DNA of 64,000 nucleotides from Octopus vulgaris (taxonomy: Eukaryota). Every line of letters begins with the position of its first letter. Position 1 is the first letter of the stretch. The position numbers are program-made. The stretch lies in the NCBI GenBank assembly GCA_951406725.2, contig OX597832.1:14322001-14386000 (forward strand), in the 5' to 3' direction. Shown piece by piece: positions 18,001 to 64,000 of the stretch.

Positions 18001-21000
18001 TTTCACGTGGACCGGTTCCTGCACTGGCAAAATAGGCCCTACTCCCTCAGTACACGTTACCATGACAGAGACCCTCAAACTGTCGTGTTGAAGTCTGTGC
18101 TACAACTGATTCGCTTTGCACCGACATCATGGCAGCCACCAGTGTAAAATAGTTTCGATATGGAGCCTATAATTTACGAAGAAAAAATTTGCGAAAATAT
18201 CATTGACTCTGTTATTATCTAGTGTAACAATTTAAACATAATAATAACTGAATCAATATTGTAGGCGATATTTATATATATATGTGTGTGTGTGTGTGTG
18301 TGTGTGTGTGTGTGTGTGTGTGTGTGTGTGTGTGTGTTGAATATTTCGGTGTTTTTAAACCGTATATATATTGATACTGATCACAACCATGCCACGCCTA
18401 TTATCAGCCGAACTTCGTAGCGTTACAGACTTTAGTTCCCATTTATACTATGTGAATGCTAAATTGGGAATCGGCTATAACATTTAACAATACATTCTTG
18501 GCATTTTACATTCACTAAATCATCATGTGTCTCATAAACTTGTGTATATTGGAGGTACACACAGTGGAGTATTTCAATTTCACATCAGTGTCCAAATTAC
18601 TATTGCTCTTATATTGTGCTTCTGGAAAACTGTATTCCATTGCAGCTCTCTCTCTCTCTATATATATATATACAATATTTATTTCTGAGTGATAATTTGT
18701 ACTTTTATGTTTTTCGGTACGGTAACGTTGTAGAAGTACTGTGGGGGTACCTTATGTGCTGCTGTGTAAAAGGTATTGTCGGATTTGAAGCTTACTTAAA
18801 AAGAAACACCACAAATTCACCTTGGCATTCATTTTAATCCCTTTACAGGTGTGCTTGTGCAAAGGGATTCTAAGTCTGTGTAGAATCAACAGGTGTAATG
18901 ATAAATATGTGTGTGTGTGTGTGTGTGTGTGTGTGTGTGTGTATTAATTTATTTCCATTCCATGGGAAATCTTGGAAATGCACGGCCGCTTAGCGGTATC
19001 CTTCGTATTACTCTCTCGTGGGTAAGAGTTTATTTTTAATTCGATTTCCAGCTAATGTGGTTGTACACTGTTTTCCTTATTTCCATTGCCCTCCGTGTGT
19101 TTTGTGAATATTACTGAATTTGCGTGCAACAATGTGTATATTTGTTTTATGAGCATTAAGTGCGTTTAAGTTATTGCGTGAAAGTAACAATTACATTTGA
19201 TGTTCTTGTTAATGGCGCTTTCGGCTTTAGGCTTTGTATTTGTAGTTTATGATATTCACCTTCTTTGTTTTGTTATTTTGTGAAGTACTGGCTTTTTTCT
19301 TTGTTGTTGTACTCTAAGTTGTTTTGTTTATTCTAATTCGTATCACCAGCATCAACAACATCACGATTGTAATTTTCAACGATCCTCCGCCACCCACAAC
19401 TCCCCCTCATCATCATAATAATTGCCATCGTTGAAAGTAACACACCATAGTGCGTTTGGTTGTTGTTTACCAAAATTTAGGCACCATGCCTAGACATGAA
19501 ATATTAAACTAGACTCTAGTAATGTCAACAAACAATATATATGTAGATGATATATGGCTAGAAATTTTATAATTTCTTTGCGAACCTGGAAATATTCCCA
19601 GTTAATTTCGTATGATGATATATGTAAGAACGGAGTGCATTATAGACATAAGCAATTGCTTTGAAAAATATTTCAACTGACATTTTACAAAATGTTATAG
19701 ATGGAGAACTACTTAAATTATAATACAAATTTTTCTTGAACAATGCTCGCAGACACTGAAACACACAAAATTGCACGCAAACACAGACATTCGTATATAT
19801 GTATATAGTGAAGTGTGCGTGTGTGAGCATAAATTGCACACAGGTATTCACACAAACCAACATGCATGTATGCACACACAATATATTAAATATAATTGAA
19901 ATATATGTATGATTATACATGTATATATATAGACATAAAAACACACACACACACATATATATCTATTATACTTCGTATATATATGTATGTATATATATGT
20001 CTGTATACATACATATATATATATATATATATATATATATATATATATATATATATATATATATATATATATATATATATCACAATCAAGGAACGGCCCT
20101 AATAGGCCATTCACCCACTAGAAATAACAGCCAAAGCTTCAACCGCAAAATAACATTAATTCCGCAAACCAGGAGAAAATTAAAAAAACATTTACCCTGT
20201 AGTTTCTTATACGATGCACCGTTTCATCTATTGTTTAATGGTAAACTAACCTGATTAAATTAAATCAAGCCAATCTTCCATAGGCCGATAGATTCGTCAG
20301 TAAGAAGCAGCCAGATCGGAACAGATATTATCACGAGGCACTTCCATCCCTGCCTCGGCAATATCTGACCTAAAATTTTCAAATCATCGCACTCGCGCCA
20401 AATTTATCGGCAGCAAATAAATATAAGCCGCCGATTCCATCGCGAGTGCGATGATTTGAAAATTTTAGGTCAGATATTGCCGAGCAGGGATGGAAGTGCC
20501 TCGTGATAATATCTGTTCCGATCTGGCTGCTTCTTACTGACGAATCTATCGGCCTATGGAAGATTGGCTTGATTTAATTTAATCAGGTTAGTTTACCATT
20601 AAACAATAGATGAAACGGTGCATCGTATAAGAAACTACAGGGTAAATGTTTTTTTTAATTTTCTCCTGGTTTGCGGAATTAATGTTATTTTGCGGTTGAA
20701 GCTTTGGCTGTTATTTCTAGTGGGTGAATGGCCTATTATGGCCGTTCCTTGATTGTGATGTTGAACTTATAAATGGTCTATGACTATTTAATTTTTTCCC
20801 ACTAGGCCGCTGGTGGCAAAAAAATTCTACAAAATTTTTTGCCACCCTATATTGATTAAATAAATATATATATATATATATATATATATATATATATATA
20901 TATATATATATATATAGATAGATAGATAGATAGATAGATAGATAGATAGATAGATAGATAGATAGATAGATAGATAGATAGAAATATAGATAGATAGATA

Positions 21001-24000
21001 GATAGATAGACAGATAGATAGGTAGATATATATAGATATATAGCTTTATAGGTATATATGTATACATATTGTTCGTTTTTGTTCAATCTTTGCCTCCATT
21101 GCCTGCAGGATTGTCATTTATTAAGCGTACAATCGCAGTTTCTTTTGTGGGACCGCATCTACTTTTGAACGTGGAGGCTCAAACTGTCTGGCAGCAGTTC
21201 GGATGGTCTTTGTGAGAGAACGAGAGCAGGTTTCTCTCACACGATCATTAATGTCCTCAAATGTCCTTGGTAACCAACTCCTCTTTCTGTATAACACTGA
21301 CTGTCCTTGCCTCTATAAATTTCTTGTGCCATGAACGAATGAACAGACGTGATGGTGTATCTCTTCCATACTTTGTTCTGTAGTTTCATTGAATCTGCGT
21401 ATCAGATATTGTCTCAGTAAACCATGATACACGTTCTGCCCTATCTTGGGAAGTAGCCGTTTCTTAGTAGTCCATTCAAAAATATGCCACTTTAAACTGC
21501 AGTATGCCTGACACACAAAAATGTAATGAGAGTAAAATCTTTGAAAACGACTGACTACAATAGAATAAGTCCGATTAAAACATCTTATAAATTCATTTGT
21601 ATTAAACGTTTTAAATTGCAAAACGACTTTATGGACACGCTGTATGTACTTTCATATATATATTTATTCACATATACATGTAAATGCTTATATAAATACA
21701 CACACACACACACACACACACATATATATATATATATATATATATATATATATATATATATATATATATATATATATATATATATATAAATACACATATC
21801 TGTGTGTGTGTGTGTGAGTGTATTGAAGTATACATTTACACTCATGCGCACACATACAGATGTATATATATATCAACCTACCTATCTATCTATATAGATA
21901 TGTGTGTATTCATACATATATATACATACATACACACACACACAACCATATATATATATATACATAGAATGATAATGAGTGATAAACAGTTATAAAGAGG
22001 AAAAATATCTAAACATGAGAAATTCACTTATGCTGATAGATTGAATTTTTTAGTATGTGCAACAACTGGGCATTTTGTTGGTACTTCTTCATGTGTACGG
22101 TATGCGTACAGTTCGCATCTCCATATATATATGTAAATATGTATGATTGTAAAATATATTTTATAGTTGTATATGGGTTATACTTTGTACAACACAATAC
22201 GAATATTCATTTTTTTATACTTGACTTCTATTCTACCTATGAGATCTTCCGTAAGCATGAAAACAAAATAGGGTCATATATTCACTAACAAAACTAAAGA
22301 TATTATATTCAAACATGGAACTTTTATTTCTGAATTTACTGCATCAGGCACATTTGAAACACTCCTCAAAAAAACGATATATTAGAACATCTGAGGTAAT
22401 GTTCAAAGCTTACTATTAAATTATGTGTTCCACATTCTTCATATTCGGGTTTGTTGATAATCTGAGAAATTTGCAGTGGTTTGTTTTATTTGGAAGATAA
22501 CAATTTTTATGAATGTAATACCATCTGTATTATATTGACAATGATCAAACGCTTACTGTTTTATATTTACTGTGTTATATTTCAACTCATATATTATGTC
22601 AGTGTGTCAGGGAGCACAACACATAGACACAGCTGTTTAAATATGACATTGGTTGTCTTACGAAAACATTACAACTATATTCTTTTTTACTCTATGCTCA
22701 AGGACCAACATATAGGGGGAGGTTGCCAGTCGCTTAAGTCGATCTCAGTACGCAACTTAATTTATCGACCTTGAAAGGATCAAAGGCAGACTTGACTTCG
22801 GGGAAATTTGAACTCAGAACATAAACACAGACGTGATACCGTTAAGCATTTCACCCGAGATGCTAACGTTTCTTATTTCTTTATTGTCCACAAAGGGGCT
22901 AAACATAGAAGAGACAAAGAAGGACAGACAAAGTGATTAAGACGATTACATCGACTCCAGTGTAAAACTGGTACTTGATTAATCGACCCCAAAGGCAAAG
23001 TCGACCTCGGCGGAATTTGAACTCAAAAAGTAACGGCTGACGAAATACCTATTTCTTTACTACCCACAAGGGGCTAAACACAGACAGGACAAACAAGGAC
23101 AGACAAATGGGTTAAGTCGATAGTAGCGACCCCGGTGCGTAACTGTTACTTATTTAATCAACCCCGAAAGGATAAAAGTCAAAGTCGACCTCGGCGGAAT
23201 TTGAACTCAGAACGTAACGGCATACGAAATACCGCTAAGCATTTTAGTGTACGTGTTAACGATTATGCCAGCTCGCCACCTGGTGATATTTGTATTCTAC
23301 TGATCAGCGGATGCTTGACCTCTGCGTATCTTTGCTCATTCATAGACTTTGTATCACTTGAAAATCAAACATTTCAAGATTTTACCAGATCGATGCGCAC
23401 AAACATGGTAAACCCCACCAGAAATCATCAGAAAATTATTCAATGATTTTCTATATATATATATATATATATAATATATATATATATATATATATATATA
23501 TATATATATATACATATATATTTGTGTGTATATATATATATATATATATATAAAAACATATACACACACATATATATATTTATATACTTATATATTTATA
23601 TAATTATGCATGTTTTGCTAATATATTAAAATTTATCTATTAGTACGTGCACAAATGCAGTCTCACTCCAAATTGGACGAACATTTACACACGCACAATT
23701 ACACACACACCGATACGAAGCCAAATACACACAGAAACACTCACAAGAACACACACATACATACATACATATATACATACATAATACACACACACACACA
23801 CATATATATGTTTATATAGTGATGAAGGAGACGGTAGGGGCAACCACCAGTAAAGAAGTACGTTTCTACATTTATATGCATTAGTGCCCATCAAGAAGCG
23901 GATTAAAATATTCTCTCATTGAATCAATAAGATACAATATTCATTCAGTAATTGATTTATGTGCCAAAATATATGGGTTGGAGCCCCGCGAAGAATAAAC

Positions 24001-63000: not shown

Positions 63001-64000
63001 ACAACAACAAAAACAAAATACAAATTACAAGAATGTATATAACCAGAAGATACAAATATTACAGACATCCCCCCCACACACTAAACAAACATAGACGCAC
63101 ATAGAGATATAAGCATGCGCAAATGAAGACATACAATAGAAATACAAAATGGCTGACGTTTAGTAAGGAGAGACACAAGTAAGTGAGAAGAAAACAAAGG
63201 ACCACTGATGCGGTCACAGGAGTGTGACTACCCCACTAAACACCCCAACCATAGACTACCAGTACTAGACACTGAACTCTGGCTAGAAATTGTGAAAAAT
63301 AAAACCCAAATCCTTCATTCATACTATGCAAAACCTATGGCCTCAAAATACCTGATCCACCGGAACTCAGCTATTGCGGGCAATGCCAAATTCAATATTT
63401 TGATGGCAGACCTCGTCAGAATAATGAGAAATGTGTCACGCATGTGCGAGCCTACAGAATTAAAGAGACACATACAGTATTTCATTCACCGCATGCAGTT
63501 CTCAGGTTACAGCCATAAAGAAAGGATCAGAGTATACAAAGGAGCCATGAAGAAATTTGATAATATATTATGTAATGATAGGAATGGGATTTGCCCACTC
63601 TATAGGAACAAGTCATGGAACACTATAGAAAGGACAAAAAAGAAAATAAGGAAGGCCAACTCTTGGTATGATAGCCATAAATACCAGAGTGTCATGTTCG
63701 TTGACACCACCCCTGGAGGTGAACTAGCGTACCGCTTTAGAAGGACCCTAGATAAACTTAAACTAAGAATTAAGGTTGTTGAAAAGCCAGGCAACCCTAT
63801 CAGATCTATAATTGGTAGAACCTATCCTTTTAGTAGAACTCTCTGTACGGATAACTATTGCACTGTATGTAGATTTAGCCCACAAACGAACTGTAAAGCC
63901 AGAAATGTGGTCTATAGTATAAGATGTATAGAGGGACGATGCAGTAACAAGACAGTAACATACGTAGGGGAAACTGCAAGAAGCATTGGTGAGCGGGTGA

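What the first reader, a model, noticed from the sequence alone, without database searches (positions are those of the whole stretch)
20079..64000. One insertion layout seen three times: head-to-head arms, twice with a central filler copied from the left end
Seen: at 20 kb, 27 kb and 49-64 kb the left part is minus-sense and the right part plus-sense. At 27 kb the centre repeats 26851-26910; at 62 kb the centre repeats 48695-48920. The joints show 2-4 nt microhomologies. Inference: both target strands prime reverse transcription, and the nascent cDNA template-switches onto nearby flank DNA before the two products are joined. This would be a signature of PLE integration shared by autonomous and non-coding ribozyme elements.
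Basis: inference. Interest (0 to 1): 0.78.

Follow-up and report, generated by a model that had tools for sequence, protein, structure and literature searches.

The report
Octopus Penelope-like elements inserted head-to-head
Three retroelement insertions in this octopus sequence show the tandem-plus-inverted layout already known for Penelope-like elements, and one joint carries a copy of nearby flanking DNA that hints at how the two halves were sealed.

Summary
At 20 kb, 27 kb and 49-64 kb two copies of one element lie with their 5' ends inward. The 49-64 kb element is a young Penelope-like element (PLE) with a C-terminal endonuclease, from an Octopus genome. It forms 2.86 tandem units on the minus strand facing a plus-strand copy. 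The centre at 62.2-62.6 kb holds about 1.75 copies of flank 48695-48921. The centre at 27.2 kb repeats 26848-26910. Five joints carry 2-5 nt of microhomology (combined p about 1e-4).

The layout itself is not new. Partial tandems with an adjacent inverted 5'-truncated copy are a published PLE hallmark (PMC8557442, PMC3846280). A PLE protein cleaves and extends both target strands in vitro (PMC11167929). Paired minimal hammerheads on opposite strands were reported in 2014 (PMC4209133).

Flank copying is well supported only at 62 kb. The 27-kb filler is probably the element's own 3' end plus a 'tail'. The 20-kb locus has no traceable filler. A hammerhead is supported only at 20 kb, by my own descriptor; Rfam finds none. 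Other genomic copies, empty alleles and the right end beyond 64000 could not be examined.

The parts
20079..20397 (-). E20 left arm; its 3' end abuts (TA)n 19976-20080
   Evidence: 99.06% complementary to 20441-20759. Hammerhead-type descriptor hit at 20306-20204 on the minus strand. (TA)n.
20398..20440 (.). E20 centre, 43 nt, with an imperfect 9-bp inverted repeat around a 12-nt loop; origin unknown
   Evidence: Read. The longest match within 3 kb either side is an AT-rich 11-mer, which I take as no convincing template.
20441..20761 (+). E20 right arm with a hammerhead-like type I motif at 20531-20633
   Evidence: 1 of 600 shuffles reaches the observed stems and 53 of 600 reach the loose thresholds. 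Rfam negative.
26848..26871 (-). 24-nt extension at the outer end of the E27 left arm, absent from the right arm; probable PLE 'tail'
   Evidence: G+C 62.5% against 31% in the flank. Tail concept from PMC8557442 and PMC11167929.
26872..27165 (-). E27 left arm
   Evidence: 94.3% complementary to 27562-27267 over 296 nt.
27166..27207 (.). E27 spacer S, 42 nt, 21% G+C, no source found in the window
27208..27270 (-). E27 filler T: copy of 26848-26910 (24-nt extension plus the 3'-terminal 39 nt), same orientation as the left arm; overlaps the right arm by GTGA
   Evidence: 88.9% over 63 nt. Junction read.
27267..27562 (+). E27 right arm; degenerate hammerhead-like motif at about 27345-27385 (core reads CCGAUGA)
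48695..48921 (+). Flank segment A, the source of the 62-kb filler
   Evidence: (D19).
48922..49124 (.). TA-rich microsatellite tract between A and the PLE 3' end; likely target
   Evidence: G+C 13%.
49125..62237 (-). PLE array: unit 1 49125-53711, unit 2 53712-58300, unit 3 58301-62237 (5'-truncated)
   Evidence: 11 SNP columns among the units.
49868..53794 (-). Intact 1308-aa ORF (P0001): N-rich insert, reverse transcriptase, CX4CxxC linker, GIY-YIG endonuclease. It starts 82 nt upstream of the unit's 3' boundary.
49290..49347 (-). Hammerhead-like motif in the non-coding part (helix I, 6-bp helix II, GAAA), but the core reads CUGAUGCG
   Evidence: Not found by Rfam or by my descriptor.
62238..62402 (+). 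Filler A' = 48699-48863, joined to the array's 5' end through ATTC (62234-62237)
   Evidence: Ja, Jb.
62403..62418 (-). 16 nt identical to the array's last 16 nt (62222-62237), between the two flank copies. It is part of the 181-nt repeat at 62222-62585, 2.0 copies, 100% identical.
62419..62641 (+). Filler A'' = 48699-48921, joined to the right arm through GAATA (62637-62641)
   Evidence: Jc.
62637..63228 (+). Right arm, segment 1 = reverse complement of 49913-49319 (ORF end plus most of the non-coding part)
63226..64000 (+). Right arm, segment 2 = reverse complement of 50869-50095 (ORF). It is joined to segment 1 through GAC, skips 3037 nt of a tandem, and runs off the window.
   Evidence: (Jd).

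Best explanation
These are three insertions made by Penelope-like-element machinery in an Octopus genome. They show the tandem-plus-inverted architecture already described for this class.

Shown here:
- The 49-64 kb element is a canonical PLE with a C-terminal endonuclease.
- Its 3' boundary lies 82 nt inside its own ORF and abuts a TA-rich microsatellite.
- It forms 2.86 head-to-tail units facing an inverted, 5'-truncated and internally deleted copy.
- All joints carry microhomology.

Inferred mechanism:
1. The endonuclease cuts both strands of an AT-rich target.
2. Each 3'-OH primes reverse transcription, so the two cDNAs grow towards each other with their 3' ends outward.
3. Short non-coding templates (20 and 27 kb) are copied to a common inner end. 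The long element is truncated at different points on the two sides.
4. The two cDNA ends are then joined by microhomology-guided synthesis.

At 62 kb the 3' end of the right-hand cDNA would have annealed at GAATA to the exposed top strand of the left flank. It would have copied 227 nt of that strand, let go, and re-annealed at ATTC to the end of the left-hand cDNA. The embedded 16 nt of PLE sequence and the second flank copy are either a second round of the same process or a later 181-nt tandem duplication.

At 27 kb the 63-nt filler is the element's own 3' terminus with its tail. It was copied either from the left cDNA or by a fresh initiation on a new RNA, which is how pseudo-LTRs are thought to arise.

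Whether the PLE reverse transcriptase or a host end-joining polymerase made the switches cannot be told from sequence.
For: PLE identity:
- YVDD motif, CX4CxxC linker and GIY...YVG with two cysteines between them.
- These residues are invariant in 25 aligned relatives.
- GIY-YIG E 9.2e-4 and RVT_1 E 6.8e-4, both below Pfam's cut-offs.
- A profile of the alignment hits a solved reverse transcriptase at E 1.3e-5.
- Best relative is 99% identical, from Octopus vulgaris.

Architecture.

3' boundary: it lies 82 nt into the ORF in an AC-rich stretch next to (TA)n. This parallels initiation 111-118 nt into the ORF and cleavage of AT-rich DNA in Anolis PAc.

Both strands are cleaved and extended in vitro.

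Microhomology: 4, 2, 5, 3 and 4 nt against a null mean of 0.72 nt, combined p 1.3e-4.

The filler A is not part of the tandem unit and has no other copy in the window.

Copies are distinct and of similar age: 11 SNP columns among the units, 4-5 private differences in the 1365-nt right arm, and 1 of 227 between A and A''.

Hammerhead-type motifs: in E20 the motif points outward in both arms. The hammerhead-like motifs lie 134, 177 and 183 nt from the 3' ends of the three elements (coordinates).

The published layout matches.
Against: - The right end of the 49-64 kb structure lies outside the window. It is not shown that the right arm ends in a PLE 3' terminus at a target junction.
- No target-site duplications are visible at E20 or E27.
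- No other copy of any of the three families is in the window, and no eukaryote collection was open. Element boundaries, the 'tail' and full length are inferred from single loci.
- Rfam finds no hammerhead. The E27 and PLE motifs have non-canonical cores. E20 and E27 share no sequence with this PLE, so their link to PLE machinery is indirect.
- The near-perfect symmetry of E20 and the shared inner ends of E27 also fit self-priming.
- With only three loci, outward polarity at all three has a chance probability of 1/8.
Confidence: 0.55

Rival explanations
1. Self-priming (snap-back). One cDNA folds back on itself and copies itself, giving a hairpin-like inverted repeat. This was proposed for Penelope from palindromes at inverted junctions. 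It would apply mainly to E20 and E27.
For: - E20 is a near-perfect palindrome: 99% arms and a centre with a 9-bp inverted repeat around a 12-nt loop.
- In E27 both arms stop at the same element position.
- The model is in print (PMC3846280, discussion passage).
Against: - The E20 centre has an asymmetric 8-versus-5-nt bubble.
- E27 has 101 nt between the arms, including a direct copy of the 3' end. A simple fold-back predicts neither.
- At 62 kb the arms end at different element positions, 399 nt apart.
- Both-strand extension has since been seen in vitro.
Confidence: 0.15
2. Rearrangement at the DNA level after an ordinary insertion. Serial replication template switching (the FoSTeS/MMBIR type) or break repair made the inverted copy and the flank-derived insert at 62 kb, without any reverse transcription of the second arm.
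For: - Four joints within 14 kb all carry microhomology, with segments in both orientations and one repeated tract. This is the textbook pattern of such events (PMC2621351, search listing only).
- The right arm's variants do not exclude a DNA copy of unit 2 or unit 3.
Against: - The same 5'-inward polarity recurs at all three loci, and in PLEs of many phyla.
- The right arm begins with a 5'-truncated 3' region, as PLE inverted copies do.
- It explains neither E20 nor E27.
Confidence: 0.12
3. The fillers are element-derived and not copied from the flank at this locus. At 27 kb, T is a pseudo-LTR-like restart at the distal initiation site. At 62 kb, A plus (TA)n is a 3' read-through (transduced flank) of the source copy, so the A copies in the centre are the 3' ends of further templates.
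For: - The E27 extension is G+C-rich like the element and unlike the flank, and roughly fits the published tail, though 24 nt is shorter than the 30-40 bp described.
- Both A copies in the centre end at the same base, 48695-48698. Jumps onto one RNA 3' end would do this.
Against: - At 62 kb it needs an extra step.
- It leaves unexplained why the PLE/(TA)n boundary at 49125 sits exactly where a normal PLE 3' end is expected.
- The shared end-point of the two A copies also follows from a simple 181-nt duplication.
Confidence: 0.12
4. E20 and E27 are foldback or MITE-type DNA transposons unrelated to PLEs, and their likeness to the 49-64 kb layout is a coincidence.
For: - Both are short, non-coding, long-armed inverted repeats.
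- Rfam sees no ribozyme.
- There is no sequence similarity to the PLE.
Against: - No target-site duplication at either element.
- The E20 hammerhead-type motif is reached by 1 of 600 shuffles at its observed stems.
- Paired minimal hammerheads 100-700 bp apart on opposite strands are a reported PLE-associated pattern.
- E27 has the one-sided extension and the partial direct copy typical of PLEs.
Confidence: 0.05
5. The 49-64 kb inverted structure is an assembly artefact.
For: - PLE tandem/inverted structures are known to trouble assemblies.
- The structure runs off the window.
Against: - Every unit and the right arm carry private variants.
- The joints are unique sequences with microhomology.
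Confidence: 0.03

Closest known systems
Complex tandem/inverted insertions of endonuclease-bearing Penelope-like elements (pseudo-LTRs, adjacent inverted 5'-truncated copy, one-sided 30-40 bp tail): PMC8557442, PMC3846280
   Same: - Partial tandem plus an inverted 5'-truncated copy placed head to head.
- 3' boundary inside the start of the ORF.
- Microsatellite target.
- Microhomology-mediated internal deletion.
- N-rich insert in the ORF.
- One-sided extension (E27).
   Different: The head-to-head joint at 62 kb holds about 1.75 copies of host flank taken from 204-430 nt outside the element. I found no description of such a filler in the passages read or in searches. Capture of host DNA as a spacer is reported for Adineta Pen1, but at the 3' pLTR.
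In vitro activity of Anolis PAc (PMC11167929)
   Same: - Both target strands are cleaved and extended.
- AT-rich cleavage sites.
- Initiation inside the RNA, about 100 nt into the ORF.
- Two start sites explain the tail.
   Different: That work stops before joining of the ends. The loci here are finished genomic products and say nothing direct about enzymes.
LINE-1 twin priming and MMEJ-type resolution (PMC11702581, passages)
   Same: - A second 3'-OH primes a second cDNA.
- The inversion joints carry microhomology.
- Templated insertions occur at insertion sites.
   Different: In L1 the second primer anneals inside the same RNA, so one insertion has a single 3' end and an inverted 5' part. 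Here each arm carries its own 3' end, as seen at E20 and E27.
Templated (filler) insertions of polymerase-theta-type end joining, for example at T-DNA junctions
   Same: - Stretches copied from nearby flanks and bounded by 2-5 nt microhomologies.
- Repeated rounds of copying.
   Different: This comparison is recalled, not tested. The listed papers were not read. No enzyme evidence here.
Minimal hammerheads of PLE pseudo-LTRs and metazoan non-LTR retrozymes (PMC4209133; PMC7229834, listing only; bioRxiv 10.64898/2026.07.22.740005)
   Same: - Short non-coding units of about 300 nt.
- A type I hammerhead-like motif with a long helix II and a short helix III.
- Pairs on opposite strands a few hundred bases apart.
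   Different: - No tandem array here.
- E20's helix II is 68 nt long.
- Rfam models do not match.
- E27's core is non-canonical.

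Membership tests
Canonical C-terminal EN+ Penelope-like element | Reverse transcriptase domain with a YxDD centre | tested here: met
   - YVDD in P0001.
- Y367, D369 and D370 invariant in 25 sequences.
- RVT_1 E 6.8e-4, 19.8 bits, below the 29.6 cut-off.
- Profile hit to a solved reverse transcriptase at E 1.3e-5.
- No hit to telomerase.
Canonical C-terminal EN+ Penelope-like element | C-terminal GIY-YIG endonuclease with CCHH, the two cysteines lying between GIY and YIG | tested here: met
   - Motifs read.
- Y641, C645, Y657, G659, R668, H672, H688, H693 and E719 invariant.
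- PF01541 E 9.2e-4, 19.9 bits, below the 22.6 cut-off.
- Definition from PMC8557442.
Neptune/Nematis-type PLE | CX2-5CxxC linker upstream of GIY-YIG | tested here: met
   C618, C623 and C626 invariant. Criterion from PMC8557442. No phylogeny with named references was made, so the clade is by motif only.
Canonical C-terminal EN+ Penelope-like element | Partial tandem (pseudo-LTR) with an adjacent inverted 5'-truncated copy | tested here: met
Canonical C-terminal EN+ Penelope-like element | Hammerhead ribozyme in the pseudo-LTR | tested here: inconclusive
   - No Rfam hit at gathering score or at E<=1.
- No descriptor hit, even with one core mismatch allowed.
- A motif with helices I and II and GAAA, but with core CUGAUGCG, lies at 49347-49290.
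Canonical C-terminal EN+ Penelope-like element | 3' boundary inside the beginning of the ORF (internal initiation); AT-rich or microsatellite target | tested here: met
   The boundary lies 82 nt after the ATG and abuts (TA)n. Compared.
Canonical C-terminal EN+ Penelope-like element | Target-site duplication and 3' terminus of the inverted arm | not testable with these tools
   The right arm runs off the window at 64000.
Metazoan non-LTR retrozyme / PLE-dependent hammerhead element (E20, E27) | Type I hammerhead with the conserved core | tested here: inconclusive
   - E20 passes a descriptor of my own: stems of 6, 6 and 3 bp; 2 hits in the whole window on both strands, both in E20; 1 of 600 shuffles reaches the observed stems and 53 of 600 the loose thresholds.
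- Rfam finds nothing, even at E<=10 on 161 nt.
- E27's core reads CCGAUGA, with a U-U pair closing helix II: not met.
Metazoan non-LTR retrozyme / PLE-dependent hammerhead element (E20, E27) | Head-to-tail tandem copies | tested here: not met
   Only inverted pairs. E27 has a 63-nt partial direct copy.
Metazoan non-LTR retrozyme / PLE-dependent hammerhead element (E20, E27) | Sequence similarity to the pseudo-LTR of an autonomous PLE | tested here: not met
   No similarity to the only PLE in the window. Other octopus PLE families could not be searched.
Foldback/MITE DNA transposon (E20, E27) | Terminal inverted repeats flanked by a target-site duplication | tested here: not met
   The inverted repeats are present, but no duplication is visible at either element.

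The most novel reading that the evidence does not exclude
The flank-derived filler at 62 kb, bounded by GAATA and ATTC and containing an aborted 16-nt return to the first cDNA, is a fossil of the last, so far unobserved step of PLE integration. In this reading the cDNA primed on the second strand searches the resected first-strand flank by microhomology and copies it in repeated short rounds before the two cDNAs are sealed. If such fillers recur genome-wide next to the inner end of the inverted arm, they would give in vivo proof of dual-strand priming. They would also give a countable signature of how PLE tandem/inverted structures are completed, shared by autonomous elements and their hammerhead-bearing passengers.
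Probability: 0.25. Interest if true: 0.6.

Novelty: new member of a known kind. Interest (0 to 1): 0.36.

Why it matters
How PLEs finish integration, and why they end up as tandem/inverted structures, is stated as an open question in the field (PMC8557442 discussion; PMC11167929 closing paragraph). These loci add no new kind of system. They do offer a young octopus PLE, about 0.3% diverged and with one intact ORF, whose joints can be read base by base. The flank-templated filler turns a vague 'complex structure' into a specific prediction that a genome-wide census or an in vitro joining assay can test. For annotation, the three loci are ordinary PLE-type insertions. They should not be read as hairpin RNA genes, even though Rfam microRNA models give sub-threshold hits on the arms.

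Tried and rejected
- Rfam, whole window at gathering score: 0 matches.
- Rfam at E<=1 on 19500-31000: 52 matches. On 48000-64000: 27 matches. None is a hammerhead. Nearly all are microRNA-precursor models matching the hairpin arms or microsatellites, which I reject as genes.
- Rfam at E<=10 on 20500-20660: 2 matches, no hammerhead.
- My hammerhead descriptor with relaxed stems, or with one core mismatch, found nothing beyond the two E20 hits.
- Pfam on the five long ORFs of 48-64 kb: 1 of 5 gave a sub-threshold RVT_1 hit. Cutting the ORF into parts was needed to see GIY-YIG.
- Pfam on 8 other stop-to-stop ORFs of the window: 0 of 8 had a family.
- The profile search of solved structures gave a defence reverse transcriptase but no telomerase.
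- Sensitive BLAST of each element against the window: no further copies, and no similarity among the three families.
- Search for a local template of the E20 centre and the E27 spacer within 3 kb either side: only AT-rich 9-11-mers.
- Divergence of the E27 filler (7 of 63) against the arms (17 of 296): not significantly different, p 0.16.
- Variant sharing between the right arm and individual units does not single out a template unit.
- Pyatkov et al. 2004 (PNAS) is not held. Arkhipova 2006 and Evgen'ev & Arkhipova 2005 were seen only as citations.
- The genome-contig scan was not used, because that collection holds only bacteria and archaea. So other octopus copies, empty alleles and the sequence beyond 64000 stayed unchecked.
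- Supplements of the papers, including the figures of PLE hammerhead variants, were not consulted.

Full report
**What the window is.** It holds no N. G+C is 28-43% in 2-kb steps and microsatellites are abundant. The long ORF at 49-54 kb has its best relative, 99% identical, in an Octopus vulgaris predicted protein. I therefore take the window for cephalopod nuclear DNA.

**Locus 49-64 kb: anatomy.**
- Self-comparison shows a head-to-tail array at 49125-62237, with a period of about 4587, 2.86 units and 99.6-99.7% identity.
- One unit junction carries an intact 1308-aa ORF on the minus strand, 53794 to 49868. The next copy is frameshifted and the last is 5'-truncated.
- The protein has YVDD, a CX4CxxC linker and a C-terminal GIY...YVG block with two cysteines between the halves and histidines after it. 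These residues are invariant in an alignment with 24 relatives.
- Pfam gives GIY-YIG (E 9.2e-4) and RVT_1 (E 6.8e-4), both under their curated cut-offs. A profile of the alignment hits a solved defence reverse transcriptase at E 1.3e-5 and no telomerase.
- By the criteria quoted in PMC8557442 this is a canonical C-terminal EN+ Penelope-like element of the Neptune/Nematis linker type. That assignment rests on the motif only.
- The array's 3' end (49125) lies 82 nt after the ORF's ATG, in an AC-rich stretch, and abuts a 203-nt TA-rich tract. This parallels the internal initiation site and AT-rich cleavage reported for Anolis PAc.

**Locus 49-64 kb: the inverted arm and the centre.**
- From 62637 the plus strand carries the element in sense. 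62637-63228 equals 49913 to 49319, and 63226-64000 equals 50869 to 50095. The joint between them (GAC) skips 3037 nt of a tandem.
- Between the array's 5' end (62237) and this arm lie 399 nt made of host flank. The order is 48699-48863, then 16 nt identical to the last 16 nt of the array, then 48699-48921.
- 62222-62585 is an exact 181-nt tandem repeat.
- The source segment A (48695-48921) lies left of the TA-rich tract. It is not part of the tandem unit and has no other copy in the window.
- The joints share ATTC, GT, GAATA and GAC with both partners.
- Units differ at 11 SNP columns. The right arm has 4-5 private differences in 1365 nt. A differs from its copy at 1 of 227 positions. So these are distinct copies of one age, and I do not take them for an assembly duplication.

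**Locus 20 kb.**
- 20079-20397 and 20441-20761 are 99% complementary. The 43-nt centre contains an imperfect 9-bp inverted repeat, a 12-nt loop and an 8-versus-5-nt asymmetry.
- A descriptor for a type I hammerhead (core CUGANGA, helix II, GAAA, helix III, UH, helix I) hits only twice in both strands of the whole window. The hits are at 20531-20633 on the plus strand and at its mirror image in the left arm, with stems of 6, 6 and 3 bp.
- In 600 block-wise shuffles, 53 give at least one hit at the loose thresholds set beforehand, and 1 reaches the observed stems.
- The predicted fold contains the long helix II (z -3.8).
- Rfam does not recognise it, even at E<=10 on 161 nt. The hammerhead is therefore a candidate only.
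- The left arm's outer end abuts (TA)n. No target-site duplication is visible.

**Locus 27 kb.**
- The arms 26872-27165 and 27267-27562 are 94% complementary. Both stop at the same element position at the centre.
- The left arm extends 24 nt further outward (26848-26871).
- The centre consists of a 42-nt AT-rich spacer of unknown origin, then 27208-27270. That stretch is an 89% copy of 26848-26910 in the left arm's orientation and overlaps the right arm by GTGA.
- The 24-nt extension has 62.5% G+C, against 31% in the flank and 45% in the arms. Only one arm has it.
- It is somewhat shorter than the 30-40 bp 'tail' of PLEs, which Frangieh et al. trace to two adjacent initiation sites. I still think the filler here is element sequence and not flank.
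- The hammerhead-like motif in the arms has a non-canonical core (CCGAUGA) and no thermodynamic support.

**Chance.** The five measurable joints carry 4, 2, 5, 3 and 4 nt of microhomology. The mean is 0.72 nt for 200,000 random junctions drawn from the same DNA, and the combined p is 1.3e-4. Outward polarity at three of three loci has a chance probability of 1/8 and is weak on its own.

**What is known.**
- The layout is a textbook feature of PLEs: partial tandems forming pseudo-LTRs, often with an inverted 5'-truncated copy directly upstream, and a one-sided tail (PMC8557442, passages; PMC3846280, passages).
- PMC3846280 also reports microhomology-mediated deletions, capture of host DNA as a spacer, N-rich inserts in the ORF and a self-priming model.
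- Cervera and de la Peña noted pairs of minimal hammerheads 100-700 bp apart on opposite strands (PMC4209133).
- Frangieh et al. showed that a purified PLE protein cleaves and extends both strands (PMC11167929, main text).
- A 2026 preprint argues that animal retrozymes are non-autonomous PLE derivatives (abstract and passages).
- L1 twin priming with microhomology at the inversion joints is the nearest analogue outside PLEs (PMC11702581, passages).
- Searches listed no paper that describes flank-templated fillers at PLE head-to-head joints. That holds only for the held library, and I read passages, not whole papers or supplements.

**Mechanism.** I favour dual-strand target-primed reverse transcription, followed by microhomology-guided, template-switching joining of the two cDNA ends.
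- In this reading the 62-kb filler was copied from the exposed top strand of the left flank by the 3' end of the right-hand cDNA.
- Steps shown here: element identity, architecture, polarity, filler origin and microhomology.
- Steps inferred: which strand copied what, the order of events, and the polymerase.
- The second flank copy with the embedded 16 nt is either a second round of copying or a later 181-nt duplication. Zero differences in 183 nt fit both.
- Rivals are self-priming (best for E20), DNA-level serial template switching, element-derived fillers including 3' read-through, foldback transposons, and misassembly. Each is listed with what would refute it.

**Verdict.** This is a new host and new families of a known kind, with one junction detail worth a genome-wide follow-up.

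**Unchecked.** The right end beyond 64000, other copies, empty alleles, and related octopus PLE families. No open collection holds eukaryote genomes.

Noticed in passing
window about 52234-53062 (minus strand; residues about 245-520 of P0001): A roughly 275-residue N/S-rich low-complexity insert sits inside the PLE ORF without breaking it. It resembles the N-rich inserts described for Adineta vaga Penelopes (PMC3846280). The array's 5' truncation (62237, equivalent to 53066) sits at its upstream edge.
   Followed up: partly
protein P0028: An Octopus vulgaris model named 'dynein regulatory complex subunit 6-like' matches 20% of the PLE query at 97% identity. This suggests a gene model that has absorbed a PLE fragment.
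   Followed up: no
window 1081-1388 and 22755-23266: A repeat family with units of about 120-180 nt, 80-86% alike and partly in tandem. It has no hammerhead fold: one chance match to the core pattern at about 23037, with no helices found by the descriptor. It looks SINE-like, an impression from the sequence only.
   Followed up: partly
window 29415-29618 / 30076-30279 and 37429-37554 / 38140-38265: Two further inverted pairs that are not in the finding: 87% with a 457-nt microsatellite-rich spacer, and 79% with a 585-nt spacer. The descriptor gives no hit at either pair, and neither shows coding signal. Their nature is unknown.
   Followed up: partly
window 27117-27316 and 20356-20482: Rfam plant microRNA-precursor models (MIR4208, MIR1512) give sub-threshold hits on the hairpins formed by the inverted arms. 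I take these as artefacts of the palindromes.
   Followed up: yes
window 63226-63228 (equivalent to 49319): The internal jump in the right arm falls exactly between helix II and the GAAA of the PLE's hammerhead-like motif. This may be a coincidence.
   Followed up: no
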